Below, in pieces: positions 653 to 13,377 of a stretch of DNA of 64,000 bases (position 1 is the first letter of the stretch; every line of letters begins with the position of its first letter). The position numbers and the translations under genes are program-made. This stretch comes from a virus. The stretch spans positions 27,977 to 91,976 of IMG/VR virus record IMGVR_UViG_3300028908_000005. The stretch is one strand, 5' to 3'. The notes below the pieces were generated by a model, which was not told the origin of the DNA, ran no database searches, and was given only the letters and a program-made list of their open reading frames with translations.

Positions 653-2776
653 TTACACTTCCGAATAAACTACGTTGTCGAACAAGTAAGATAATCGCGG
701 ATCGTGCGTTACGAACAACAATTGCAACCCGTTAGTCGACGCAAGTTTCCGCAGCTGTTTCAACGCATCGGGCAAGCGGGCTAAGTGCTGCTCGTCCAAA
801 TACGCCTGCGCCTCGTCGAGCACCAAAACATCACTGCCAATAAACAGTGTATTCAATGCAATGCGCAACGCAAAAGCCAAAACGACGCGCTGCCCAACGG
901 ACAACCGCCGATCCGGTATCCGACGCCCATCAGCGAACAAAGCCGTGAAGCCTAAATCTTCAGTCGGCTCAACGCGGAACGGCGCATCGAAAATCTCCAA
1001 AGTCTCGTTGATATCTCCCAATAACCGTTCCATGTAGGTGTACGTCACAACCCGCTGCAACTCGTCGCGGTGGAAAATGCGTCGCAACTTCGTCATATGC
1101 TCCAAAGCTGCTTTAACACGCTCACGTTTCGCGATTTGCGCGTCAGCACGTTGCAACACACCTTCCATAACACCGAGCTGCCGCCTCAAATCGGTTAAAC
1201 TGTCAGTCAAAACGCGGATATTCGCTTCGATCTCGCTCTGGTCTCGTAACTGCGATTCCATCGCCTCCACGTCGTCACTGACTTCGATCGCATAGGCTTC
1301 GGCCAGCTTGCGGCTCGCCATTTCCTCTTCGTCTTTGATATTCGCTCGCGTCGACTCGTACTCGGTCTTCACTTTCGTCTGCGCCACCAACGTCTCGGAA
1401 ACACGCAAACCAGCTCGCTGCAATTGCTCACGACCGCGCCGCAGCTTGTTCAACTCTTCCTCGTCAGGCGGATCGCCCAACTTCGCCACAGCCTCGTCCA
1501 GCCGCTCCTGCAAGCGCCGCAACCGTTGCAAGCTTTCGTTGTATGACTTGAGCCGCTGCTCATAGTCGTGATACTGCTCGTACCTGGCCTTAACGTCGGC
1601 AGCCGCAGCTTCCAACTGCGCAATCTCTTGCTGCAAAGACGCCGATAGCGTTTGCTTGTCGACCGGCTGCCCGCATGTCGGGCAGTTCGCTTCATCGACT
1701 TGCTGCAGCTTGGCCAATCTGGCACGCGCATGTTCCAGCTGCGACGTCAACGAAGCGAACTCGCCGTACAATTCGCGCACTCTGTCGGGTGAATAGTCCA
1801 CAATCTCGGTCGTCGGCTCGCTTATGGTCGACGCCAACGTAATGACCGCCTGCTCCAACGACGCAACTTCATTCGCCCGCTCAGTGTAAAGCTGGGCCGC
1901 CGCGTTGAGCTCGGATAAACGCTCTTCGACATCGCCGTACTCTGCCAACAATTGATCGAACGCACGTTTAGCTTCGTCGTGCTCGGCGACAGCTTCGGCT
2001 AACGCTACAGCCAACTCGCCAAACCGCTCCGTCTTGGGCAATACCGCGTCAATACGTCGCTGCGCCTCGGCATACAATTGCTGCTGGCGGTCGCGCGCAG
2101 CAATCTGCCTACGGTACTCAGCCACCGTCTCGGGCGATAAACGGACGGCTTCGAGTCGAGACAATTCGGCCTCGTACTTATCGCGCTTCGCAAACATCTC
2201 GGCCAACGTCGACCTGACTTGCTCGATATCGTCAGGATACGGCGGAATCTCGACACGACTCGTTGCCGTCATAATTGCCTGCCAGATCCGCTCCGCCGTG
2301 TCCGTCCCAAAGAGCCGCGCCAGCTCCTTGGCGCGATCAGCCGGGCGCAGCTCCAACCACGCTGTAATCTGCTGCTGGCGCACGAAAATGTGCTCCTGCA
2401 GATAGCGCCGCGAAATGCCCAACCGCCTTTCGATCTCTTCGTTGACCTCGACGATCGTACGCCCGTAACGCTCGCCGTTGACCGTCAGTAACACTTTGTT
2501 CGGCCGCAAACCGCGATAGACCTCAATCGTGTCGCCGCGATGCTCCAGCGTTAATCGCACATACGCTCGGCTGCCTTCGGGTGCTCCTTGGCGTATGTCG
2601 TCGGCCTTCGTACCAGTGCCGCCAGCATCCCCGGTCAATGCGTAAAGCATCGCCCGAATCATGTTCGATTTGCCGGAGCCGTTCGGGCCGGCAATCAAGT
2701 TGAAATGCGGACTGAACTCGACCGTACGGTCGTCATACTGGCAAAAGTTCACCAGTTCAAGTTTCTGAAGTTTCAC
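653..2776 (-). CDS. sbcC: SbcC/Rad50-like SMC ATPase
   Basis: Probable GTG start at 2776 (VKLQKLELVNF). Walker A GPNGSGKS, long coiled coil with Zn hook CPTCGQ, signature LSVGQ, Walker B/D-loop VLVLDEAQAYLD, H-loop VTHD. Confidence 0.92.
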   Translation of the reverse strand: MKLQKLELVNFCQYDDRTVEFSPHFNLIAGPNGSGKSNMIRAMLYALTGDAGGTGTKADDIRQGAPEGSRAYVRLTLEHRGDTIEVYRGLRPNKVLLTVNGERYGRTIVEVNEEIERRLGISRRYLQEHIFVRQQQITAWLELRPADRAKELARLFGTDTAERIWQAIMTATSRVEIPPYPDDIEQVRSTLAEMFAKRDKYEAELSRLEAVRLSPETVAEYRRQIAARDRQQQLYAEAQRRIDAVLPKTERFGELAVALAEAVAEHDEAKRAFDQLLAEYGDVEERLSELNAAAQLYTERANEVASLEQAVITLASTISEPTTEIVDYSPDRVRELYGEFASLTSQLEHARARLAKLQQVDEANCPTCGQPVDKQTLSASLQQEIAQLEAAAADVKARYEQYHDYEQRLKSYNESLQRLRRLQERLDEAVAKLGDPPDEEELNKLRRGREQLQRAGLRVSETLVAQTKVKTEYESTRANIKDEEEMASRKLAEAYAIEVSDDVEAMESQLRDQSEIEANIRVLTDSLTDLRRQLGVMEGVLQRADAQIAKRERVKAALEHMTKLRRIFHRDELQRVVTYTYMERLLGDINETLEIFDAPFRVEPTEDLGFTALFADGRRIPDRRLSVGQRVVLAFALRIALNTLFIGSDVLVLDEAQAYLDEQHLARLPDALKQLRKLASTNGLQLLFVTHDPRLSYLFDNVVYSEV

Positions 2777-3878
2777 CAACGAGCTCCTCGAAAATAGCCT
2801 TCGCTTCGGTAACAGGATCAGCCGCACGGACCAACCTGACAGCATTCTGGTAAACCGCTTCGTCGTCCCGATAAAGCTCGGCAAGCCCGCGCAACAGCGC
2901 TTCTTTACCGCCGCCGGCGACGATGTGATCGCGCTTATCCTTCGGAATGGCAACTGCAGGGCCCTGCTCCGGCGGCGACACGCTGATAAACAAATGCACC
3001 GAATCGCCCGCCCGCCGCCGAATGAGTTCGACTGCGTCAGGAATATCCGCACGCACCTGAACCCAAACGATGTTCTTCTCGATCTCCGGCGGTACGTGCG
3101 GCTGCGGCTGCGACACTTGCGACTCGTCCCAACGAGCCAACAAGCTGTCCAAGTCGGCTTCGCTGTTGACGTACCACATGAAACACTGCCGCTCCAATAG
3201 CCGCCGAGGCTCCACATGCAAGTCGTCGTACAGAAGATAAACCCGCTTCGGTGCGTTCTCGTTGATCTTCTGCCGACACAACGGACCAGGCGACACGAAA
3301 GGCAAGCATTTGCTGCCAAACTCGCGATACATCCCGCAGTGGAAATCGCCGGATACGATCAAACGATGCTCCTGGCAAGCATCCAACCAGACGTCGCCCA
3401 AGACATCGCCCATCAGATCCTTCCAAACCTGATGCGTGACGAATACGTCAGCCGCCGCAACCTTCCCGACAGCCTCGACGACTTCGCTCGGATGCTGATA
3501 ATCCAAACCGGCAAACGCCAGATTGCCGACCTCGATCGGCGTATCGGTAAGATGCGTTGCCGCATGCGAAAGTGTCGAAATAATCGGCGGTTGCGAAAGT
3601 TCGTGCTGGCCTTGGACGTACAACACGCGACAGCTCGCCGCATCAGCCGCTGACAAGAATCGCTGCATCGTCGCCAAAGCAGTCGATCGTTGCAACTTTT
3701 CGTTGAATATGTCGCCGGCAAGCACCACGGCTCGCGGGGACAGCTGTTCCACGATATTCGCTACTTGACGGATGCCGTAGTCGATATCGCCAACCAAATC
3801 GGGGTGGTCAGCCCAAATGTACGGCATGCGGCGGATATGCCAGTCAGCCGTCAAAACTGCGATAAGCTCGTGTGACAC
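2757..3878 (-). CDS. sbcD: SbcD/Mre11-like metallophosphoesterase nuclease
   Basis: Motifs TADWH, LAGDIFN, QGQHE, VTHQ, SGDFH; overlaps the sbcC start. Confidence 0.88.
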   Translation of the reverse strand: MSHELIAVLTADWHIRRMPYIWADHPDLVGDIDYGIRQVANIVEQLSPRAVVLAGDIFNEKLQRSTALATMQRFLSAADAASCRVLYVQGQHELSQPPIISTLSHAATHLTDTPIEVGNLAFAGLDYQHPSEVVEAVGKVAAADVFVTHQVWKDLMGDVLGDVWLDACQEHRLIVSGDFHCGMYREFGSKCLPFVSPGPLCRQKINENAPKRVYLLYDDLHVEPRRLLERQCFMWYVNSEADLDSLLARWDESQVSQPQPHVPPEIEKNIVWVQVRADIPDAVELIRRRAGDSVHLFISVSPPEQGPAVAIPKDKRDHIVAGGGKEALLRGLAELYRDDEAVYQNAVRLVRAADPVTEAKAIFEELVGETSET

Positions 3879-4246
3879 TAAATATCCCTCCGTTCAAGAA
3901 GCTTGTTGAACTGATCGACCGTCAACGGCGGCGCGTCCAGTTGCCGATGACTGTAAAGTTGCACGCCAAAGTTATAAACTGCGTCCTTTTCGGCTTGAGT
4001 CGAAATACCCATGCTTTCATAAAGACCAGGCGGTACCGCCAGCCGGTGCGTACCGTCACGAACCTGCGACACCAGCGACTCTTTGAAATCGAGCCATAGC
4101 TCGTTGAGCTGCCGCCCATGTCGCATAGCCAACGAAAACTGCAACGTGCCGGCCTCAGCGCCGTACCAGGCAACCGCATCGGCAGCAGCTGCAAGTTCGC
4201 GCTGCAGTGTCTCACGGTAAAGCGATGCAAACAGTCTCGCACTCAT
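3878..4246 (-). CDS. Hypothetical protein
   Basis: ATG 4246 overlaps the upstream stop; fills the gap in an operon. Confidence 0.65.
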   Translation of the reverse strand: MSARLFASLYRETLQRELAAAADAVAWYGAEAGTLQFSLAMRHGRQLNELWLDFKESLVSQVRDGTHRLAVPPGLYESMGISTQAEKDAVYNFGVQLYSHRQLDAPPLTVDQFNKLLERRDI

Positions 4247-5610
4247 AGATCGATCTCCTTTATGCGAGCAACAAGTTCCGTTGTACTGCACGATACGGGC
4301 GGCTTCGGCGCTATACTGCAGAAATCGCCGCCGCAGGCCGCCACCGTGCTCCCTTCCGGTATCCCCGTCGGCGTATACCCCGGCCCTTTGAAGTACAGCC
4401 GCGGCTTGAGTTGCCGCAATATCTGCTGCGCAGTACGGCTGCTAAACGACGTCACCGCCGCCACGCTCTCCAACGCCGCTAACGAGAACATCCGCTGCTG
4501 GAGCGGAATGATCGGTCGCGAATAACCCTTGTTCTCCCGCGCTGACGCATCGTCGTTCACCAACACGAACGCCGGTGACATATAGCGATTTCTCGCCTCT
4601 GTCAACAAGGCGATATGCCCCACATGCATCAAGTCGAAAACGCCGTTGGTCGTCGGAAACACCTTGGCCAGCTGCGGCCCGAACGTCAGCGACAATTTCG
4701 GGGACAGAATCTTGCGCTGGATATCGCCAGCAATGTACTCGCCCCAGGCATCGAATAGCGATATCGGACACGGACCCACGTTGTCACAAGCTGCCGTCGC
4801 TGCAGCCGACGCGAACTCCAAGGCGGTCTTTGGCTCTAGTCCAAACAACTCAGCCATCACGTACGACGCTGTCAGCACGTCGCCGGCACCGACGGAATCG
4901 CATACCTGCCGTTGCCTGGTCAGCACGCTCTGCCCGTCGGAAGTAATCGCGCCGCGCGGACTCGTGATGATCAGCCGCTCCGTATTGAGCTGGTAGGCCA
5001 AAGTCTCCGTATCCTCAACACCCAACCGCAGTTGCATCACCGCCGCTTCGTCGCTATTCGGGAATATCGCCGTCGAGGGCGGATAGCGATGGAAATCGCC
5101 TTTGCTGTGCGGATCGATGTAGATTGGCGTCGTCACACCGCGAAATGCCACCGCTGCCGCCCCTACGGCGTCACCGCCGTAATCGGCCAGCACGATTGCG
5201 TCGTAAGCGTACGCGCCCAGCAAATACTCCACCTCATGCCGCAACTCACCTAACGCCGTCGCCGGCAACGCGTGATACTCCCGCGGCGTTATGTCGTGGC
5301 GAGCCAGCAAAGCGCCGTCGCGAGAATAGTATCGCCGGCGGATACGAGGTGGCCGCCGATGCGATATCGCAACGCTCACACCTTCGCCCGGTGCGTACTT
5401 GAGTCGCTCGAAGCAAACCAAGTCGACGTCGGCGCCGTACTTGCCGAGCTGCCGCGCAATCAGCGCCGCACCGCCATATCGGACATCATTCGGGGTCGTC
5501 GATATCTGATACACGGGGATCGGTGTCGTCTGGTCGACTCGGTCGCACTTGATATCGTACCGCTCGTCCGCAACGACATCACCGACCACCAGAATCTTGA
5601 AGTTCGCCAT
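4243..5610 (-). CDS. hldE: HldE/RfaE-like bifunctional heptose kinase / nucleotidyltransferase
   Basis: N-terminal PfkB kinase (ILVVGDVVADE, GGAA, LADY, DSVGAGD) fused to a cytidylyltransferase domain (TNGVFDLMHVGH, NDDAS...KG.SRPI, YFKG). Confidence 0.85.
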   Translation of the reverse strand: MANFKILVVGDVVADERYDIKCDRVDQTTPIPVYQISTTPNDVRYGGAALIARQLGKYGADVDLVCFERLKYAPGEGVSVAISHRRPPRIRRRYYSRDGALLARHDITPREYHALPATALGELRHEVEYLLGAYAYDAIVLADYGGDAVGAAAVAFRGVTTPIYIDPHSKGDFHRYPPSTAIFPNSDEAAVMQLRLGVEDTETLAYQLNTERLIITSPRGAITSDGQSVLTRQRQVCDSVGAGDVLTASYVMAELFGLEPKTALEFASAAATAACDNVGPCPISLFDAWGEYIAGDIQRKILSPKLSLTFGPQLAKVFPTTNGVFDLMHVGHIALLTEARNRYMSPAFVLVNDDASARENKGYSRPIIPLQQRMFSLAALESVAAVTSFSSRTAQQILRQLKPRLYFKGPGYTPTGIPEGSTVAACGGDFCSIAPKPPVSCSTTELVARIKEIDL

Positions 5611-5962
5611 TCTGCTGCTCCAACGAGAATATGAGCCGCCCATCGCCGTCTATCACGACAGGCTCGGAAAGATCGACGTGCGGCCGTACGCACGATGCTA
5701 GAAATTTGCCGTCCCGGTGCCACTGTATGTCCAGCCACGGGCCGTGCCTGGAATCGTACAGATACAAGTACACGCGGTCGCTCGAATTAGGTAACCCGGC
5801 AAGCGTAAGCGTATACAGCAGCGAATCTTCTGTCGTCGCTCCTGCGGTCAAAGAAAGCAGCGATGCCAGCGAAGCATACAGCTCCGCTGGCACCACGTAA
5901 ACTGCCGCAATTACCCCAGGCTGCTGGTGCAGCGCTGCCGGCAAGATCGGTTCATTCGCCAT
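5579..5962 (-). CDS. Hypothetical protein
   Basis: Overlaps both neighbours in the operon. Confidence 0.55.
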   Translation of the reverse strand: MANEPILPAALHQQPGVIAAVYVVPAELYASLASLLSLTAGATTEDSLLYTLTLAGLPNSSDRVYLYLYDSRHGPWLDIQWHRDGKFLASCVRPHVDLSEPVVIDGDGRLIFSLEQQNGELQDSGGR

Positions 5963-6281
5963 AAGTGCCTTCGACGCCACGCGCTTCGCGGTCAGCAGTC
6001 CGCGCTGCGAGCGCTGTCAACGCCTTGCCGATGTAATCCACCGCCAACGCGTTTTCAGGACACGCCAAACGGCTCTCTTGATACAGTTCCAAGCGATCGA
6101 GCACCGCTTGCAACACGTCCTCGACGCGCGCTCCGTTCGGCTCGTCGCCGTCCTGGACCGGACCGCGCTGCCACGCGATCGTAAAACCGCAACCCCAACT
6201 ATGCCCGCCTTCGGGCAGCCCATCCTGCGTAAACCAATGATGTTGACCGCCTGCCGGCCGCTCAGCTACTGCACTTCCCAT
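5952..6281 (-). CDS. tad1: Tad1-family (Thoeris anti-defence) nucleotide-signal sponge
   Basis: IAWQRGP...NGARVEDVLQAVLDRLELYQ...CPENALA...RTADREARGVEGT follows the Tad1 pattern (FQKG...G...DLL...DRL..FQ.....RENA.A....EEAL.W...R..DR..R.V.GT); GGAGG RBS upstream. Confidence 0.75.
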   Translation of the reverse strand: MGSAVAERPAGGQHHWFTQDGLPEGGHSWGCGFTIAWQRGPVQDGDEPNGARVEDVLQAVLDRLELYQESRLACPENALAVDYIGKALTALAARTADREARGVEGTYGE

Positions 6282-6317
6282 AGCAAACCTCCAATAACAA
6301 GTATCCGGATACTGATT

Positions 6318-7142
6318 TCAGCGAAGCAGCTCACCGTATCGCTGCACACGCCGCGGAATGCTTCGGTAAATAATCGCTAGGATCGCCGCCGCATGCGGCG
6401 ACATCGCATCTGTAAGCCACGATTTCGGATACCGCGACATGTTGACCACGCCGAACGCGATCTGAAAATCGCTCTGTGGTATCTGCCGCGCTGGAAATTC
6501 CAACGGCGGCTGCCAATCAGCCGGCGCAAGCATCATGTACGAAAACCTCGTTACGACATGCGCTTGCCGTTCGGCAAAACCATTAACCCGCCGCAACACG
6601 ACGGTAAACCTGTTAGCGGCGGCCGGTACGTCTGCTGCCACAAGACGTCGAAATTTTCGCCGCAACGGTTTATAAGTCTCTTTCGCTATTTTGTCAAACT
6701 GGACCGTCGGCGCCGGCCCGTAAAGCTCGATCACATTGCTGCCGTCGGTACTGCCAAGGCTCAATGATCCATGAAACACACGCATATTCGTGCTGTTTTC
6801 CCAGACACGACGCATCGCGAAGAACAACCTGACCACGGATGCGCCGAAACAAAATGGGCAAATTGGGATGTTACATCGCGGACGGGCGCCACGGTAATAA
6901 ACACCAACCGGCGGACAGACCATCGCAAGCCGCATCCTCGGGCTCACCGGCAAACCGGTGCGCTCCATGTCGTACAAACGGCGACGCCACAGTTTCTGCA
7001 CCTGGAGAATCTTCTCGCAGCAATTCTTCTGCGTCATCCGACCAACCAAACGATCGAACACGGCGCGACGAGCAGTCCAGCTTGCCTGGTCATTGAACAT
7101 CGCTACCGGTTCCCAATTCGGGTTCCACTGCGGTTTCTCCAT
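6318..7142 (-). CDS. Hypothetical protein with Cys cluster (CNIPICPFC)
   Basis: ATG 7142 with GGAGA upstream; first gene after the non-coding gap. Confidence 0.7.
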   Translation of the reverse strand: MEKPQWNPNWEPVAMFNDQASWTARRAVFDRLVGRMTQKNCCEKILQVQKLWRRRLYDMERTGLPVSPRMRLAMVCPPVGVYYRGARPRCNIPICPFCFGASVVRLFFAMRRVWENSTNMRVFHGSLSLGSTDGSNVIELYGPAPTVQFDKIAKETYKPLRRKFRRLVAADVPAAANRFTVVLRRVNGFAERQAHVVTRFSYMMLAPADWQPPLEFPARQIPQSDFQIAFGVVNMSRYPKSWLTDAMSPHAAAILAIIYRSIPRRVQRYGELLR

Positions 7143-7390
7143 CTGATCTTCTCCGTAGTTTGCCGCCTGAGCTCCGTACGCGGCGGCTGAGACGCTGTAA
7201 CGGTACTTGAGGTGTTCTGAGTCATTCGGCGGCTCGAGGCTCTCAGAAGCCAAATATGAGCTTCAATAAACACCACCCAAAAGTATTACGGTTTAGTGGT
7301 CCTTCGCATTGGTGTCATAGACATCTGTACACTATGGCGGAACTGTCAAAATCGGCGAGTGGAATTGGCTGTAGTCCAGCATCTGTAGGC

Positions 7391-7477
7391 TAGAGCACCC
7401 GCGTGCAAAGTAAAAGCACGCGGGTGTGCTCTATCCTGGATTACTTAGTAACTTTTACTTTGTTACTAAGTAACCAG
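7391..7477. other. Twin inverted repeats with mutually complementary loops in an AT-rich intergenic region (possible origin or structured element)
   Basis: Hairpin 1 at 7391-7433 has loop AAAGTAAAA; hairpin 2 at 7436-7477 has loop TTTTACTTT. Confidence 0.7.
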
Positions 7478-7851
7478 CAGGTTACAGAAACCGCATGTGT
7501 TAATTTTTTACCTTGTTTTATAGGCTAAAGTCCACTTTAGAGGCCAATTTCGCCAATTTGTTGTCACAGCAAATTTTGATTTTACACAATAAAAACATAC
7601 CACCTCTGGGGTTTGAAACGACTAGCTGCGGAATTTTCCAATCGGGTGGTTTTTACCACCTTTGGATTGAGATTATGTTTCAATAGTCTCTCTCCCTGCC
7701 GCCGCCGAACTAAACGTATGACCTCAAAGGTTGTAGAAAACTCTGTCATTTTGACACACAATCTAGTAGACCTTGGTTGTGTGCTAACAATTTGTCACAC
7801 TTCTGCCGCCGAAATGCTTGCATTTGTGCGACCAAAAAAAGAATTATTTGA

Positions 7852-7887
7852 GCGCAAAAACAACGGCCTGAGTCGTAGCTCAGGCCG
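7852..7887 (-). terminator. Intrinsic terminator
   Basis: On the minus strand CGGCCTGAG-ctacga-CTCAGGCCG is followed by TTGTTTTT, just after the stop at 7908. Confidence 0.7.
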
Positions 7888-7907
7888 CCGTTTCGGTATC
7901 CGGATAC

Positions 7908-8327
7908 TTATTTCTTGGACTTCTTGCAGGAGTCGAGTTCTGGATACTTCGCGCACACTTTTGCTTTCACCTTCGCCGGATCAGAAGCGTACCGCCGATA
8001 AGCTAGCGCTGCGATAGCTCTTTTCTTCGTATCGATCGGGAAACTGCCACTCGGCTCATGTTTCTTACTTGGGAATACTTGTTTTGATTTCGGCAGCTTC
8101 TCCCGCCGTTCTTGTGTTATTTCGGAGTACTTCCGAAACATCTTCTCGTGCTTCGCTTTGAGCTTCCGCAGCTTCTTCCTTTTCGTTTCGGCAAACTCTG
8201 TCGCCACCGACGGTTTCACCTTCTTGGCCAGTTGTTTGACCTTCTTGCTTGGCGCTTCGATTTCGCCTTTCTGTACGGCATGGACCATGCCGAACAGCCG
8301 CTGCTGCGCCTTCGATTTAGCGGGCAT
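7908..8327 (-). CDS. Small Lys-rich protein, DUF3008-like N-terminus
   Basis: MPAKSKAQQRLFGMVHAVQKGE start typical of DUF3008-like phage proteins; AGGAGG RBS; C-terminal FPIDTKKRAIAALAY. Confidence 0.75.
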   Translation of the reverse strand: MPAKSKAQQRLFGMVHAVQKGEIEAPSKKVKQLAKKVKPSVATEFAETKRKKLRKLKAKHEKMFRKYSEITQERREKLPKSKQVFPSKKHEPSGSFPIDTKKRAIAALAYRRYASDPAKVKAKVCAKYPELDSCKKSKK

Positions 8328-8396
8328 AATGTTTAACCTCCTGATTGGTTTGTTGTCCAATCCGGATTATAACACTCTGCCGACATAGAAGAAAAT

Positions 8397-10222
8397 AACC
8401 ATGCGATGCCTTGCCGAGCAGCGACTAGCCGCGCCAAGCCCTACCTAGCCGTGCCAAACCTCGCCGGGCTCTGCCCAGCGTGGCCAAGCCAAGCCAAAAG
8501 AAATCCCAGCAGCCGCCGTTAGACGACTGCTGGGCAATACCATGCAATACCGTGCCTTGCCCGGCAACGCCGCGCCTGGCCCCGCAGTGACAAGCCTTAC
8601 CGTGCTCGAGAAGCCTACGAAGTCCCAGCAGCCGCCGTTAGACGGCTACTGGGCAATACCATGCAATACCGTGCAGTGCCCCGCAACGACTAGCCGAGCC
8701 ATGTAGTGCCGGACCCCGCAGTGCCACACCATGCCATACCAGGAGAAATCCCAGCAGCCGCTGCTAAACGGCTACTGGGCAATACCTCACATCGCCGGGC
8801 AATACCTCGCATTGCCTCGCCGTACCATACCGAGCCCAGCAATGCCTTACACTGCCTAGCGTTACCGTGCCCAGCCGTGCTCGAGAAGCCTACGAAGTCC
8901 CAGCAGCCGCCGTTAGACGGCTACTGGGCGATGCCAAGCCTTGCTTCGGCAAGCGATGCTCTGCCTGGCCAGGCAACGCCCTGCCCAGCGCAGCCGCGCC
9001 TTGCCATAGCTGTTTTGCCACGCACGACCCAGCCTTGCCATACTCTGCCAAACCACGGCTTGCCAGCTGAAATCCCAGCAGCCGCTGTCAAACGGCTACT
9101 GGGCAATACCTTGCAATACCATGCAATACCTCGCAATGCCCAGCATTACCTCGCACCGCAGTGCCTTGCCATACCTAACCTTGCGCTGCGCTACCATGCC
9201 TCGCCACCCCTCGGCGCGCCGTGCCGCTCTTGAGAGCAGCAAGCAGAAATCCCAGCAGCCGCCGCTAGACGACTACTGGGCAATACCATGCAATGCCGCG
9301 CAGTACGGCGCCATGCCCCGCCCAGCCTAGCGCAGCCGAGCCAAAAGAAATCCCAGCAGCCGCCGCTAGACGACTACTGGGCAATACCATGCAATGCCGT
9401 ACACAGCCGTGCCAAACCTAGCCGAGCCATACCTGGCCTCGAACTGCCCTGCCCTACCGAGCCTAACCAAACCAGGCCGTGCCGTGTAAATCCCAGTAGC
9501 CGCCGCTAGACGACTACTGGGCAATACCTTGCAATGCCGCGCAGTACGGTGCCATGCCCCGCCCGGCCGAGCCCAGCAAGGCCACGGCTCACCCTGCCGC
9601 GCCGAGTAAATCCCAGTAGCCGCGGTCAAACGGCTACTGGGCAGTACCTTGCATTGCCACGCAGCGCCGTGCAAAGCCGAACAATGCCATACACTGCGTC
9701 GCCAAACCCCGCCCCGCATTACCAAGCCGAACGATACCTAGCCGAACCACGCCCTGCCCATCTTGGCCAAGCCTCGCCGTATGAAGCCTCGGCAGCGGCG
9801 ATTAAACCGTTGCCGAGTAATTGCCTTGCACCACCGGGGCAAGCCGAGCCTTGCACTGGCAGGCCGAACCCTGCAAAACCATGCCCATCCGGAGCATGCC
9901 GAGCCACGCAAATCCAAGCAGCCGCCGCTAGACGACTGCTTGGCAATACCTTGCAATGCCTGGCATCGCCAAGCCCAGCCCCGCCGTGCATCGCCATGAC
10001 GAGCTGCCGCCGTGCCGGGCCACGCCGATCCGTGCCGTGGGCAAGCCGAGCCTTGCAGTTCCAGGCCGTGCACTACCAAACCTCGCCCTGCCGCGCCGAG
10101 TAAATCCCAGCAGCCGCGGTCAAACGGCTACTGGGCGATATCATGCAATGCCGGACCTCACCAGACCTCGCCGGGCCTTACCAAACCCCGCCGGACCCGG
10201 CCTCGCCACACCTTGGCTTGCA
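8397..10222 (-). ncRNA. Structured repeat array: 13 GGY-NN pentamer tracts separated by 12 conserved hairpins (candidate guide-RNA array for the adjacent RAMP gene)
   Basis: 30-nt hairpins start at 8505, 8624, 8750, 8899, 9074, 9251, 9352, 9492, 9612, 9788, 9914 and 10106. Minus-strand unit: (GGY-NN)n, TGCAWGGTATTG, CCCAGYAGYCG-N8-CGGCTRCTGGG, AYTT. Stem mismatches read as G.U on the minus strand. The repeat structure is certain; RNA expression is inferred. Confidence 0.85.
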
Positions 10223-10235
10223 TCGAAACTCGGGT

Positions 10236-10829
10236 CTATGCGGCTGCAGACCGGGTCTTCTCGTCGACTTTCCACTTCGTGACGACGAACCGCCCATAAG
10301 GGCCTTTCGTGTCCGGGCGGAAATCTCCCAAGCCGATTCGTTTACCGGCTGCGTCGACCAACTCGCGCGTCAACCCGAGCGACATAATCTCTTCGTCGAG
10401 GTCCAAGGTAAACGCCAATTTCCAATCGGTAAAGCATGGACGGTGCCGCAGGATTCGACCGCCTGTCGACGGAATGCGAACCGCGCGGGTGTCTACCATC
10501 CACGGTTCCTTGTGGATAATTGGCAGCTCGATCTCAACAATCGCCAGCGCGCTCGGCACCAGCGACGTCTTTTGCGTTGTGATCTTCGACTTCCCGTTCT
10601 TGAAAAACTTTCCGGCGGCGATAATGGCGCGGAACAGATTCGGACCGGGGATAATCGGCTTACCGGTCTTTTCGCTGATATACAGGCAATCTTCAGCCTG
10701 TTCTTTCGGCGATTTCTGTTCGCCAACCTGGGCTGCTCTTGTGCCCTTGGTTGCAGCCATCGCAGCCGCATCGGTAAATTTGTGAACCAACAACGGGGAA
10801 ACGCCTTCGATCTCACAACTGATCAACAT
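10236..10829 (-). CDS. Stand-alone RAMP/Cas7-like RNA-binding protein
   Basis: RAMP hallmarks in order: first strand IEGVSPLLVH, PIIPGPNLFRAI (compare P.IPGSSLKGA), thumb-like VDTRAVRIPSTGGRILRHRP, WKLAFTL strand, C-terminal Gly-rich loop AGKRIGLGDFRPDTKGPYGRF. Confidence 0.8.
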   Translation of the reverse strand: MLISCEIEGVSPLLVHKFTDAAAMAATKGTRAAQVGEQKSPKEQAEDCLYISEKTGKPIIPGPNLFRAIIAAGKFFKNGKSKITTQKTSLVPSALAIVEIELPIIHKEPWMVDTRAVRIPSTGGRILRHRPCFTDWKLAFTLDLDEEIMSLGLTRELVDAAGKRIGLGDFRPDTKGPYGRFVVTKWKVDEKTRSAAA

Positions 10830-10861
10830 ACTACACACCTTACAAGAAAATGTCTTCGGTC

Positions 10862-10881
10862 GCGGGCTTAATTACGCCCGC
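10862..10881 (-). terminator. Short intergenic hairpin between the upstream gene and the RAMP gene
   Basis: GCGGGC-N8-GCCCGC immediately after the stop at 10885; weak U-tract. Confidence 0.35.
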
Positions 10882-10884
10882 AGC

Positions 10885-11295
10885 TTATTGAGCCTTATGG
10901 CCTTGGGCCGCGTCCTCGCGCGCCCATTTCAGCAGTAAATCGTAGAGTTCGTCGATCGACGCGACAGTCTCGAAATATGCGTAACTGTCGCTCGGTTCGT
11001 CGCCGAAACTCATACCGCCGGTAAGCAGCATCGCGTAGTCCATTCCCGGAAATCGCACTGCGCTAACATCCCGGCGATCGGGAGCTCCCAGAACGTGCTC
11101 GACGGCGTCCATGATCATCGCGCGGCGTTCTGCCGCTGTGACGTATTCGTCGCCGGCATCGAGCTGTCCTGTAAACTCGGCAATATCTTTAAGATCGCGA
11201 TCGCTGAACTTGTTTAGCAGTTCGCGAATCGCCGCCCGCCGCGAGTCCGTCAACTCTGCTTGCGGAACACCCATGAGGATTAAATCAGCGCCCAT
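10885..11295 (-). CDS. Hypothetical protein
   Basis: Acidic 136-aa ORF in operon orientation with AAGG RBS. Confidence 0.75.
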   Translation of the reverse strand: MGADLILMGVPQAELTDSRRAAIRELLNKFSDRDLKDIAEFTGQLDAGDEYVTAAERRAMIMDAVEHVLGAPDRRDVSAVRFPGMDYAMLLTGGMSFGDEPSDSYAYFETVASIDELYDLLLKWAREDAAQGHKAQ

Positions 11296-11299
11296 AACA

Positions 11300-11524
11300 C
11301 TACCTTTTGATTAACGGACATTCACGCAGCAACGCTTCGACCGCCTCGTCGCCGCCATGCTCGTGTGCAAACTTTTTGAACTGTTGCGACAATCGCACCA
11401 CGTTCAAAGTGCGGATACGTCTGCGGCATTTGCTGCAGGCCAGCAAATAACGCCGCTTGCCAGGTCGCAACCACGCGATCGATGTCAAATGCAATGCGTG
11501 GTCATCGTCCTCATACAACAACAT
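11300..11524 (-). CDS. Small hypothetical protein (CxxC...HxH)
   Basis: Fills the gap and overlaps the RNase H stop. Confidence 0.55.
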   Translation of the reverse strand: MLLYEDDDHALHLTSIAWLRPGKRRYLLACSKCRRRIRTLNVVRLSQQFKKFAHEHGGDEAVEALLRECPLIKR

Positions 11525-12134
11525 CGGTCATCCCTTCAGGAAAACTCTCTGGAAGAACATCATAAATTGTCGCCTCCTGTGGGAACCCTTTGTAGCGTCT
11601 TGCTAGAACAGCGAGGGCGTCATTTTCGACTCCTTTCGCCTTGAGCCTGGCTTGCCTTGCAATCTCGTCTACGAGAATGTTCATATGAACTACGTTTCGC
11701 GGGACATGATGCCACCGCACGCGGTAGCTATTACTCAAAGCATCTATCATCGCCCAGCTCGTACGGTACTTTTTGCGATAATCCGGCGTGTTGCCGGCTA
11801 ACGCGACCGCACGATTATCGGTAATGATGTCGATCGTCACCAACTCGCCGCGCTGCGCCAACTGTTTGCGAAATTTCGGGCCCTCGGTCTTGACGCCGAC
11901 GAACCATTCGATCGCATGCAGATACGGCCATAGCTCAGTGATCTGCGTATTCGCTACATTGAGCGAGCCGTAAAACAGTTTGCGCTTCTGCGTAAGCCGG
12001 TTGATCAGCACGCAGGCCCAGCCGCCTGCCCGTGCCCAGATGCTCCCGCTACCGTCACCAATCAGAATGATATGCCCATCTTCGATATTCAACCGCCGAA
12101 CTAATTGACCAACAGTAAAGATCTGTTGGCTCAT
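11511..12134 (-). CDS. rnhA: RNase HI-family protein
   Basis: IGDGSG...GGWACVL, TEL, IITDN, WHHVPRN...NILVDEIAR give the D-E-D-D catalytic layout. Confidence 0.8.
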   Translation of the reverse strand: MSQQIFTVGQLVRRLNIEDGHIILIGDGSGSIWARAGGWACVLINRLTQKRKLFYGSLNVANTQITELWPYLHAIEWFVGVKTEGPKFRKQLAQRGELVTIDIITDNRAVALAGNTPDYRKKYRTSWAMIDALSNSYRVRWHHVPRNVVHMNILVDEIARQARLKAKGVENDALAVLARRYKGFPQEATIYDVLPESFPEGMTDVVV

Positions 12135-12544
12135 TCCGTTGGCGACTCCTCAGACGAGTTTTCCAGGGCACCGCGTTGTCGCTGCAGCTCTTCGAGCTCT
12201 TTGTTGGCAGATTCCAAGATCTCTGCCGCGACCTGCAAATTGCGAGAGATGCGGTCTGTCACCGCATGCTGCACCCGCGCGATGTTTTCCGATAGTTTTA
12301 TCGAAAACAGCGGTTCGGACCCGGTATTTGTCGCAATCAAACCGAAGTCCAAATCGTGTGCCGGCAGATTCCACACGAACGCAATACCTGCGCCCGCAAA
12401 TTCGGGAATCTCCCGGTTGAGTCTCTGTGTCACTTCGTCGTACGCCTCTACGACTTTTTCGACAAAAGTCTTCTTGGGGTATTCGACGAAGGTCTTCTCG
12501 TCCTGCGACTCCGTAGGAGCCGCTTGTTCGTTTTCATTGCTCAC
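12131..12544 (-). CDS. Hypothetical protein, C-terminal coiled coil
   Basis: ATGA overlap with the next gene. Confidence 0.7.
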   Translation of the reverse strand: MSNENEQAAPTESQDEKTFVEYPKKTFVEKVVEAYDEVTQRLNREIPEFAGAGIAFVWNLPAHDLDFGLIATNTGSEPLFSIKLSENIARVQHAVTDRISRNLQVAAEILESANKELEELQRQRGALENSSEESPTE

Positions 12545-12563
12545 TGCTTATTACTTTCTGCTG

Positions 12564-12938
12564 CTACTCCATGTTATCTGCTACGTCTCCGCGAATACGT
12601 TGCAAGACGTAGCCTAACGCTAAACTCAGTCGCGTCGCCGCCATGCTATAGATCGGCAGTTTGACGACAATGTCCCACGGTTCTCGTAACCAGAGACTCG
12701 GAAGGTAGAAAAAGACGATGAGCAACAGCGGTACCCAATGCGATAGGCAGAAGCGGCAGGTTAAAAGGGTTGCCACTAATTCTCTATATGGCCCGACGCG
12801 CCTAGTGCGCGACCCGCCGGGTTCTCCCCACGCGGACACCCATTCCCGCCAGGCGGCAACGACGGATTGCTCGTACAACCAGGCGTTGATGGGTACACCT
12901 GCAGCCAAAGCTATCGCAATTAGGTCCACTGCGCTCAT
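12564..12938 (-). CDS. DUF1360-like membrane protein
   Basis: LLTCRFCLSHWV motif flanked by hydrophobic helices. Confidence 0.65.
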   Translation of the reverse strand: MSAVDLIAIALAAGVPINAWLYEQSVVAAWREWVSAWGEPGGSRTRRVGPYRELVATLLTCRFCLSHWVPLLLIVFFYLPSLWLREPWDIVVKLPIYSMAATRLSLALGYVLQRIRGDVADNME

Positions 12939-12981
12939 CGTCTCATCGCACGATTTGGGTTGTTTGCTTCGCTAGCGTGCT

Positions 12982-13164
12982 CTAGCGGTTGTTGGCTTCG
13001 TCCGCTTCGGCAATGCCCATACACACTTGATAAACCATGTACATGGCAAAGCCAACAGGGATGAACGGCAATAATGAGCCTGCGATCCAAGCAAGCACTG
13101 CCGTTCCGCCAAGCCACAATGCTGCGTAATTGAAATAGAAATCAGCAATACTAAAGTCGTCCAC
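12982..13164 (-). CDS. Small membrane protein
   Basis: 60 aa with two hydrophobic segments. Confidence 0.5.
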   Translation of the reverse strand: MDDFSIADFYFNYAALWLGGTAVLAWIAGSLLPFIPVGFAMYMVYQVCMGIAEADEANNR

Positions 13165-13167
13165 GGG

Positions 13168-13377
13168 TCAAGCTCCTTCGCCTCGCGGCCAAGGCTCCAG
13201 CGTCGCTCCTCGATCGGCCAATGGCGGTTTATGCCATAAGGCATCGACGATAGGCAACGGATCTTTCAGTTGCGGTACGCGATGTACCCGAATATCGTCA
13301 GGAGAAAGCGTAGGAGCCGGGTTCCGGTACGTTGCCCGTACACCGTATCGCTCCAAGAACAATTTCGCTGAAGTCAT
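13168..13377 (-). CDS. Small hypothetical protein
   Basis: ATG with AGGA upstream; first gene of a leftward run. Confidence 0.5.
   Translation of the reverse strand: MTSAKLFLERYGVRATYRNPAPTLSPDDIRVHRVPQLKDPLPIVDALWHKPPLADRGATLEPWPRGEGA

What the first reader, a model, noticed from the sequence alone, without database searches (positions are those of the whole stretch)
8505..10135. Array hairpins covary and show a strand-specific G.U signature, indicating a functional RNA on the minus strand
All 12 copies keep exactly 11 bp plus an 8-nt loop (minus-strand loop UYURRYVG). In ten copies the imperfect pairs are G.U on the minus strand (A.C on plus), one copy is perfect, and only the 9788 copy has an A.C on minus. 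The 9914 copy swaps C-G for A-U at pair 3. The divergent 9788 copy (CTCGGCAACGG/CCGCTGCCGAG) has three compensatory pair changes. Each stem is preceded by a conserved UGCAWGGUAUUG-like handle that continues the 5-nt phase and is usually followed by AYUU. Inference: the hairpin is a processing site or 3' cap defining individual RNAs of about 100-190 nt.
Basis: seen in the sequence. Interest (0 to 1): 0.7.

Follow-up and report, generated by a model that had tools for sequence, protein, structure and literature searches.

The report
VIPR guide-RNA array with hairpin tails

Summary
Twelve hairpins (11 bp, 8-nt loop) lie at the stated places. Non-Watson-Crick pairs are 12 G.U and 1 A.C on the minus strand, and the reverse on plus. 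The compensatory changes in copies 9914 and 9788 are real.

The hairpins belong to a VIPR locus. The window is an IMG/VR phage record. The gene just upstream on the minus strand (10829..10236) is a Vipr protein: its family profile hits only PDB 36pp, "SUSP1 Vipr protein" (E 3e-19), and its model has a Csm3/Cas7 RAMP fold. Between the hairpins the minus strand is made of YNNGG pentamers, the published vrRNA guide code. These run in phase into each stem through a conserved 15-nt handle. Each hairpin therefore corresponds to the constant 3' "tail" of one vrRNA.

What differs from published VIPR:
- The tail is a plain stem-loop, probably 13 bp with a tetraloop, not the SUSP1 pseudoknot.
- It has no homologue in 204 related Vipr loci.
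- It looks inserted into an ancestral hairpin-less junction.

Not shown here: RNA ends, the processing enzyme and the targets. No reads were obtainable and no targets were found.

This scan had already met VIPR arrays, some with hairpin tails, on DNA of at least 18 other genomes. Verdict: a real new member of a known kind, of modest interest.

The parts
10236..10829 (-). vipr gene (197 aa from the ATG; an upstream GTG at 10838 would give 200 aa). Lone RAMP/Cas7-like protein.
   Evidence: The profile of its family hits only PDB 36pp_D 'SUSP1 Vipr protein', E 3.1e-19, full length. It is 24% identical to wV8 gp096, E 4e-13. AF2 model pLDDT 94.5. Top folds are Csm3, E 1e-7. phrog_4652.
10106..10235 (-). 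vrRNA unit 1 (130 nt): 18 in-phase pentamers at 10225-10136, hairpin at 10135-10106
9914..10105 (-). unit 2 (192 nt): three tracts in different phases (10105-10046, 10039-10010, 9998-9944), hairpin at 9943-9914 (pair 3 is A-U)
9788..9913 (-). unit 3 (126 nt): tract 9913-9824 (my trim's 9923-9824, which runs into the preceding hairpin), 1 nt out of phase with the divergent hairpin at 9817-9788 (three compensatory pairs, one A.C)
9612..9787 (-). unit 4 (176 nt): about 30 pentamers ending at 9642, perfect hairpin at 9641-9612
9492..9611 (-). unit 5 (120 nt): 17 pentamers at 9606-9522, hairpin at 9521-9492
9352..9491 (-). unit 6 (140 nt): 21 pentamers at 9486-9382, hairpin at 9381-9352
9251..9351 (-). 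unit 7 (101 nt): 13 pentamers at 9345-9281, hairpin at 9280-9251
9074..9250 (-). unit 8 (177 nt): tracts 9228-9194 and 9183-9104, hairpin at 9103-9074
8899..9073 (-). unit 9 (175 nt): tracts 9067-9018 and 9008-8929 in different phases, hairpin at 8928-8899
8750..8898 (-). unit 10 (149 nt): 20 pentamers at 8879-8780, hairpin at 8779-8750
8624..8749 (-). unit 11 (126 nt): 18 pentamers at 8743-8654, hairpin at 8653-8624
8505..8623 (-). unit 12 (119 nt): 14 pentamers at 8604-8535, hairpin at 8534-8505, followed by the best U-rich run
8399..8498 (-). 13th YNNGG tract (20 pentamers) with no hairpin. Its end reads like the usual handle joined directly to the AUUU element.
   Evidence: reading

Best explanation
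The region is the guide-RNA array of a phage VIPR (Viral Interference Programmable Repeat) system.

Proposed mechanism:
1. The minus strand is transcribed, probably together with vipr, whose stop codon lies 10 nt before the first tract.
2. Each unit is one vrRNA: a short AU-rich leader, then 11 to about 30 YNNGG pentamers, then a constant handle, then a GC-rich stem-loop.
3. In each pentamer GGY is held by Vipr protomers and the two N bases carry the targeting information.
4. The stem-loop is the vrRNA's 3' tail. [quoted passage not shown]
5. The conserved AYUU just after the stem is the likely point where the precursor is cut, or where transcription sometimes stops.
6. By analogy with SUSP1, the loaded filament would bind double-stranded DNA of competing mobile elements through gapped (NN-x-NN) pairing and silence it.

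Shown here: the Vipr homology and fold, the pentamer code, its strand, the hairpin covariation, and the phase and handle continuity.

Inferred: transcription, cleavage at AYUU, the capping role and DNA targeting.
For: 1. Protein.
- The family profile hits only 'SUSP1 Vipr protein' in the PDB sequences (36pp_D, E 3.1e-19, residues 1-188).
- The pairwise alignment with the Felixounavirus wV8 homologue keeps the thumb Arg and the G-loop Asp-aromatic-Arg (GLGDFRP against GVGDWRP).
- The AF2 model (pLDDT 94.5) matches Csm3/Cas7.

2. RNA code.
- 267 pentamers fall in 17 in-phase tracts. Position 1 is Y in 96%, position 4 is G/U in 93%, position 5 is G in 94%. Positions 2-3 carry 0.17 and 0.05 bits.
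- 226 pentamers fit YNNKG, against at most 61 per phase in shuffles.
- All tracts of the 92-kb record lie here, on the minus strand.

3. Strand. Tracts in 204 related loci lie on the vipr strand 343 times and opposite 6 times. Hairpin G.U pairs are 12 on minus against 1 on plus.

4. Tail.
- 97.4% of cells pair in a 13-bp helix. Five pairs change on both sides. No shuffle of 500 reaches this.
- The 15-nt handle is in phase with the stem. The stem's first C sits where the next Y would be.

5. Control. The wV8 locus shows the same plan of tract plus constant structured tail.

6. Literature. vrRNAs are 9-16 YNNGG repeats plus an invariable 3' tail, and array architectures vary among seven types (10.64898/2026.04.26.720920). 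The tail caps the filament's 3' end (10.64898/2026.04.26.720927).
Against:
- No target was found for any guide.
- No vap-like accessory gene is conserved beside this vipr.
- The hairpin has no homologue in about 1.3 Mb of related loci. All covariation therefore comes from paralogues in one array.
- Most relatives do without a hairpin, so it is not essential to this Vipr clade.
- Several units are longer than the published 9-16 repeats and contain phase breaks. How much of each unit is a working guide is unclear.
Confidence: 0.85

Rival explanations
1. The hairpins act mainly as leaky intrinsic terminators or attenuators. They would create vrRNA 3' ends by termination, not by cleavage, and would set a 5'-to-3' expression gradient along the array. 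This overlaps with the best explanation on the 3'-end role and differs only in how the end is made.
For: Four of the 12 (8505, 8750, 9251, 9352) pass a terminator-like scan on the minus strand: 13-bp GC-rich stem, 4-nt loop, at least 5 U in the next 8 nt. The last hairpin has the best U run.
Against: Eight copies are followed by only AUUU or ACUU and then G/C-rich pentamers. The terminator count for the region (6) is close to the shuffle mean of 4.6. No promoter-like site lies inside the array on the minus strand, so efficient termination would silence the downstream units.
Confidence: 0.2
2. The array is matured in a CRISPR-like way. The RAMP protein itself, or another phage protein, recognises the stem-loop and cuts at its 3' base, as Cas6 does. 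The hairpin would then be a true repeat that evolved or was acquired for protein-catalysed processing.
For: The layout resembles type I-E/I-F crRNAs: a variable part, then a 3' stem-loop, then a short constant leader of the next unit. A RAMP gene lies next to it.
Against: - Vipr here is 60-70% identical to homologues whose arrays have no hairpin, and it has no extra domain.
- No nuclease activity is reported for Vipr in the passages read of the preprints.
- No Cas1 is present in the 92-kb record, and there is no Rfam CRISPR-DR hit.
- The variable parts measure 71-162 nt and are pentamer-periodic, unlike spacers.
Confidence: 0.07
3. The palindromes work at the DNA level, or are selfish insertions (a small palindromic element spread by unit duplication), with no role in the RNA.
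For: The hairpin is private to this phage. The 13th tract looks like an empty site. Units have clearly been duplicated: the flanks of 8624 and 8899 are 89% alike over 57 nt.
Against: - A DNA palindrome predicts no strand bias, yet G.U pairs are 12 to 1 in favour of the minus strand. The U.G closing pair (12 of 12) would be C.A on plus.
- Compensatory changes keep pairing in the divergent copies.
- Insertion is always at the same point relative to the handle and in one orientation.
Confidence: 0.05
4. The region codes for repeat proteins on the plus strand (ORFs 8706-9233 and 9534-10103).
For: ORFs of 175 and 189 aa exist.
Against: Hairpin spacings taken modulo 3 are 2,0,2,1,0,2,2,0,2,0,0, so the repeat falls in all three frames. 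The sequence has a 5-nt period, not a 3-nt one. Open frames are expected in G-poor, C-rich sequence.
Confidence: 0.01

Closest known systems
Type II VIPR system of Escherichia phage SUSP1 and Felix O1-like relatives (bioRxiv 10.64898/2026.04.26.720920, 10.64898/2026.04.26.720927, 10.64898/2026.10.15.759431; PDB 36pp)
   Same: Phage-borne. A Vipr protein of about 200 aa with a RAMP fold. Guide RNAs made of YNNGG pentamers on the vipr strand. Each tract ends in a constant structured 3' tail.
   Different: - The tail here is a simple 11-13-bp stem-loop, not a hairpin plus pseudoknot.
- There are 12-13 contiguous units with no promoter-like sites between them, all downstream of vipr. In the Felix O1-like relative wV8 the tracts lie on both sides of vipr-vap1, and a promoter-like box precedes the upstream one, read by eye.
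- Tracts reach about 30 pentamers, against 9-16.
- No vap1-like gene is present.
- Protein identity is only about 24%.
VIPR arrays of the same Vipr clade (47-69% identical proteins) in uncultured phages and MAG contigs, e.g. L007, L045/L195, L088
   Same: The same protein clade. The same YNNGG tracts (median 14 pentamers). An A/U-rich element right after the last pentamer.
   Different: - Their tracts end in the handle CAAGGCAAGG and are separated by short unstructured A/U-rich spacers (7-30 nt), mostly upstream of vipr.
- None carries this hairpin.
- A few have unrelated hairpins after the tract (L186, L179/L184, L064, L073).
Class 1 CRISPR crRNAs with a 3' repeat hairpin (types I-E and I-F, Cas6-processed). 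Comparison from established knowledge.
   Same: An array of palindromic repeats next to a RAMP gene. The hairpin would stay at the 3' end of each mature guide. The RAMP fold is closest to Cas7/Csm3.
   Different: - The variable parts are not spacers of fixed length. They are pentamer-coded tracts of 71-162 nt.
- No cas1 is present.
- No CRISPR-DR family match.
- Published VIPR pairing is gapped, not contiguous.
Rho-independent terminators
   Same: GC-rich stem, tetraloop, U-rich 3' flank in four copies.
   Different: Most copies lack a U tract. The stems are preceded by a conserved in-phase handle and repeated 12 times inside one apparent transcription unit.

Membership tests
VIPR system | Vipr protein homologous to the characterised SUSP1 Vipr | tested here: met
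   The profile of 78 family members hits only 36pp_D 'SUSP1 Vipr protein', E 3.1e-19, full length. BLASTP against wV8 gp096 gives E 4e-13.
VIPR system | Minimal RAMP fold: one RRM core, a thumb hairpin, and a glycine-rich loop before the last strand | tested here: met
   AF2 pLDDT 94.5. The strand/helix order includes a beta-hairpin at 114-136 and the G-loop at 169-183 between helix 154-168 and strand 184-191. Foldseek top hits are Csm3 chains, E about 1e-7, TM about 0.55.
VIPR system | Tandem YNNGG repeats (conserved GGY, hypervariable NN) next to vipr on its strand | tested here: met
   267 pentamers. Information is 0.97, 0.17, 0.05, 0.86 and 1.58 bits at positions 1-5. They occur only here in the 92-kb record, on the minus strand. 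The first tract starts 10 nt after the vipr stop.
VIPR system | Invariable, structured 3' tail after each tract | tested here: met
   12 of 13 tracts end in the conserved handle plus hairpin. The structure class differs from SUSP1: a stem-loop, with no pseudoknot seen.
VIPR system | vrRNAs are expressed as discrete small RNAs and co-purify with Vipr | not testable with these tools
No reads were laid.
VIPR system | Guides match natural targets under the 1-nt-skip rule (at least 80% of NN bases) | tested here: inconclusive
   - Nothing above shuffled guides in the own contig or in about 1 Mb of related loci.
- No exact 10-pentamer match in IMG/VR for four guides.
- No match with up to 3 mismatches for guide 1 in 5 MAG genomes carrying vipr relatives plus 401 genomes of the phylum of the Pirellulales MAG G001.
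- The host and its mobile elements are unknown, and these searches were far less sensitive than the published nhmmer scan.
VIPR system | Accessory vap gene beside vipr (typical, but not in every type) | tested here: inconclusive
   None of this locus's neighbours recurs beside vipr in 159 related loci. Relatives sit among helicase, RusA-like and AAA-ATPase-like genes, named from the printed sequences. The type (I-VII) could not be assigned without the preprint's data files.
CRISPR-Cas array | Regular repeat-spacer units with cas1/cas2 and known repeat families | tested here: not met
   Spacing is 101-192 nt. The variable parts are pentamer-periodic. No Cas1 in the 92-kb record. No Rfam hit.
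Hammerhead-ribozyme-interspersed VIPR arrays (described for types I and V) | Hammerhead ribozyme between vrRNAs | tested here: not met
   No Rfam family at E up to 1 in 7000-12000, nor at gathering score in the whole window.
Intrinsic terminator | GC-rich stem followed directly by a U tract | tested here: inconclusive
   4 of 12 copies pass the scan. The regional count of 6 compares with 4.6 in shuffles.

The most novel reading that the evidence does not exclude
The stem-loop is a recent, lineage-specific module inserted between the ancestral handle and the AU-rich separator of a hairpin-less vrRNA array, and then spread by unit duplication. This would turn a VIPR array into a CRISPR-like one (palindromic repeat plus variable guide) with hairpin-dependent maturation, possibly by Vipr itself. 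It would be an independent, observable step along the path that the 'VIPR preceded CRISPR' hypothesis proposes.
Probability: 0.1. Interest if true: 0.6.

Novelty: new member of a known kind. Interest (0 to 1): 0.3.

Why it matters
The finding adds a well-resolved natural example to a system known so far only from 2026 preprints. It has three useful features.
- It is a 12-13-guide array read from one strand with no internal promoters, so the guides must be matured from a precursor.
- The guide tail is a plain hairpin that close relatives lack.
- One unit in the same array lacks the hairpin.

This contrast makes the role of the vrRNA tail directly testable: end definition, protection or filament capping. 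The test is to compare hairpin-bearing and hairpin-less units with one Vipr protein.

It also shows that vrRNA tails are modular and replaced quickly even within one Vipr clade. The strand-biased G.U signature proved a reliable way to call the transcribed strand.

Tried and rejected
- A single-sequence AF2 fold of Vipr was useless (pLDDT 33.5). It was repeated with a 78-sequence alignment.
- Pfam and NCBIfam gave nothing for Vipr or most neighbours.
- Rfam gave nothing in the region or the window. There are no tRNAs.
- Hairpin homologues were sought by exact degenerate pattern in IMG/VR (0 hits). They were also sought with covariance model R1 over 204 related loci. Only the 12 window copies matched.
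- Target searches under the 1-nt-skip rule found nothing significant: own contig, related loci, four exact IMG/VR scans, 5 MAG genomes carrying vipr relatives plus 401 genomes of the phylum of G001.
- I looked by eye for a pseudoknot between loop and flanks. I saw no complementary partner and no consistent covariation between loop and handle variants.
- The protein-coding, CRISPR and DNA-palindrome readings were rejected, as set out under the rival explanations.
- Complex prediction was not used, because no protein-protein claim is made.

Full report
**The observation**

The 2.3 kb around the finding contain a repeat family of about 57 nt (D4).

In the 11-bp stems the minus strand has 119 Watson-Crick pairs, 12 G.U and 1 mismatch. 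The plus strand has 119, 1 and 12. Ten copies carry only minus-strand G.U, copy 9612 is perfect, and copy 9788 carries the single A.C.

On an alignment of the 12 copies (A2), pair counting confirms three things:
- the A-U swap at pair 3 of copy 9914;
- three double changes in copy 9788 (pairs 2, 4 and 10);
- a U.G / C-G / U-A series at pair 6.

Pair counting also shows that the outer loop bases pair. The closing pair is U.G in 12 of 12 copies. The next pair is C-G in 7, U-A in 2 and unpaired in 3. RNAfold therefore draws a 13-bp stem with a tetraloop in most copies. Typical copies fold at about -26 kcal/mol on minus (z from -3.9 to -4.9), against -17 to -19 on plus. Copy 9788 is about equal on the two strands (-21.7, z -3.2, against -21.4).

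All five covariation measures but one exceed 500 of 500 shuffles. However, the copies are paralogues, and the double changes come from only three or four lineages.

**What lies between the hairpins**

Read on the minus strand and anchored at each stem, the intervening sequence falls into pentamers of the form YNNGG. Over 17 in-phase tracts (267 pentamers):
- position 1 is a pyrimidine in 96%;
- position 4 is G or U in 93%;
- position 5 is G in 94%;
- positions 2 and 3 are nearly random (0.17 and 0.05 bits).

Of these pentamers, 226 fit YNNKG, against at most 61 per phase in shuffles. The last three pentamers form a conserved handle (consensus CAUUGCAUGGUAUUG) that abuts the stem in phase. The stem's first C falls where the next pyrimidine would be.

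After the stem only AYUU is conserved, and the phase of the next tract is free: spacings modulo 5 are 4,1,4,0,2,1,0,0,1,1,2. This asymmetry places the hairpin at the 3' end of the tract before it.

**Context**

The window is part of a 92-kb IMG/VR virus record, about 44% complete. All genes from 653 to 13244 are on the minus strand. A roughly 200-aa gene ends 10 nt before the first tract. It has no Pfam or NCBIfam hit but belongs to phrog_4652.

A note from this scan on the same stretch used the word "VIPR-like". That led me to the literature. Four 2026 preprints describe Viral Interference Programmable Repeat systems. These consist of a phage-borne minimal RAMP protein (Vipr) and vrRNAs of 9-16 YNNGG repeats followed by an invariable structured 3' tail. 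The NN bases pair with double-stranded DNA, skipping one target base per repeat. There are seven types with variable array architectures. [quoted passage not shown]

**Membership tests**

- A profile of 78 family members (A3) finds a single PDB sequence, 36pp_D "SUSP1 Vipr protein". The E-value is 3.1e-19 and the match is end to end.
- The pairwise alignment with the homologue of Felixounavirus wV8 (E 4e-13) keeps the thumb arginine and the Asp-aromatic-Arg of the glycine-rich loop.
- With the alignment, AlphaFold2 gives pLDDT 94.5. Foldseek ranks Csm3/Cas7 chains first.
- The family is very large: 3104 representatives at the 50% cluster level.
- As a positive control, the wV8 locus shows YNNGG tracts ending in a constant hairpin/pseudoknot tail on both sides of vipr-vap1.
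- All YNNGG tracts of this phage's record are in the array, on the vipr strand.
- In 204 related loci from viral, metagenome and genome collections, tracts lie on the vipr strand 343 times and on the other strand 6 times.

I therefore file the locus as a VIPR system and the hairpins as vrRNA tails.

**What is particular here**

Relatives with 47-69% identical Vipr end their tracts with CAAGGCAAGG. Their units are separated by short A/U-rich spacers such as AUUUUAG, mostly upstream of vipr. A few carry unrelated hairpins (L186, L179/L184, L064, L073).

The 30-nt hairpin of this window has no match in IMG/VR by pattern. It also has no match in any of the 204 loci by covariance model.

The 13th tract (8498-8399) ends in a sequence that reads like the usual handle fused directly to the AUUU element, as if the hairpin were absent from an otherwise similar junction.

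Taken together, these points suggest that the AU-rich element is the older unit boundary and that the hairpin is a lineage-specific addition. This is an inference.

There is no promoter-like site on the minus strand within the array. The units are therefore probably cut from one precursor. Four hairpins also pass a terminator-like scan, so partial termination cannot be excluded.

Several long units contain phase breaks. They may be fused or decayed guides.

**What could not be shown**

- Targets: guides decoded by the 1-nt-skip rule match nothing above shuffled controls in the phage itself (this agrees with the preprints' report of no self-targeting) or in the related loci.
- Four exact scans of IMG/VR and a mismatch-tolerant scan of 5 MAG genomes carrying vipr relatives plus 401 genomes of the phylum of G001 found nothing.
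- The host is unknown. The nearest Vipr relatives sit in Planctomycetota and Magnetococcales MAG contigs.
- No conserved accessory gene accompanies this vipr, and the VIPR type could not be assigned.

**Verdict**

The element is a new member of a kind already described in 2026 preprints. This scan had already met that kind in at least 18 other genomes, some with hairpin tails. The plain, private hairpin tail and the natural hairpin-less unit beside it are the only features that go beyond what is described.

Noticed in passing
window 8399-8498 (-): A 13th YNNGG tract of 20 pentamers follows the last hairpin but has no hairpin of its own. Its 3' end looks like the handle joined directly to the AU-rich element, a possible 'empty site'.
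   Followed up: partly
window 9914-10105, 9074-9250, 8899-9073 (-): The three longest units each hold two or three pentamer tracts in different phases. They may be fused units that lost a hairpin, or decayed guides.
   Followed up: partly
window 9788-9913 (-): The divergent hairpin copy also has a different handle, and its tract is 1 nt out of phase with the stem, unlike the other 11.
   Followed up: partly
window 8338-8367: A 9-of-11-bp inverted repeat lies just upstream of the start (8327) of the downstream minus-strand gene and overlaps its AGGAGG ribosome-binding site. It may control translation.
   Followed up: no
window 7908-8327 (-): The gene after the array encodes a lysine-rich 139-aa protein. 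Its N-terminus matches several PHROGs of unknown function (best phrog_28725, E 1e-9). It is not found beside vipr in relatives.
   Followed up: partly
window 653-5643 (-): The phage carries a Rad50/SbcC-like ATPase (653-3319), a weak Mre11/SbcD-like phosphoesterase (2757-3878) and an HldE-like bifunctional heptose kinase/adenylyltransferase (4243-5643).
   Followed up: no
window 11511-12134 (-): A 207-aa protein has a weak RNase H match (phrog_531 E 6.5e-5; NCBIfam RNase HI E 0.0016) three genes upstream of vipr.
   Followed up: no
L045 / L195 344-2170: A related array of 15 vrRNA units is separated by conserved U-rich spacers of about 30 nt that end in TATAAT-like boxes. Each unit may have its own promoter, unlike the array studied here.
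   Followed up: no
L186 3633-3900; L179 and L184 about 2450-2560: Other members of this Vipr clade have short GC-rich hairpins, unrelated in sequence, right after their tracts. Structured tails seem to arise repeatedly.
   Followed up: no
I did not examine it here.
   Followed up: no
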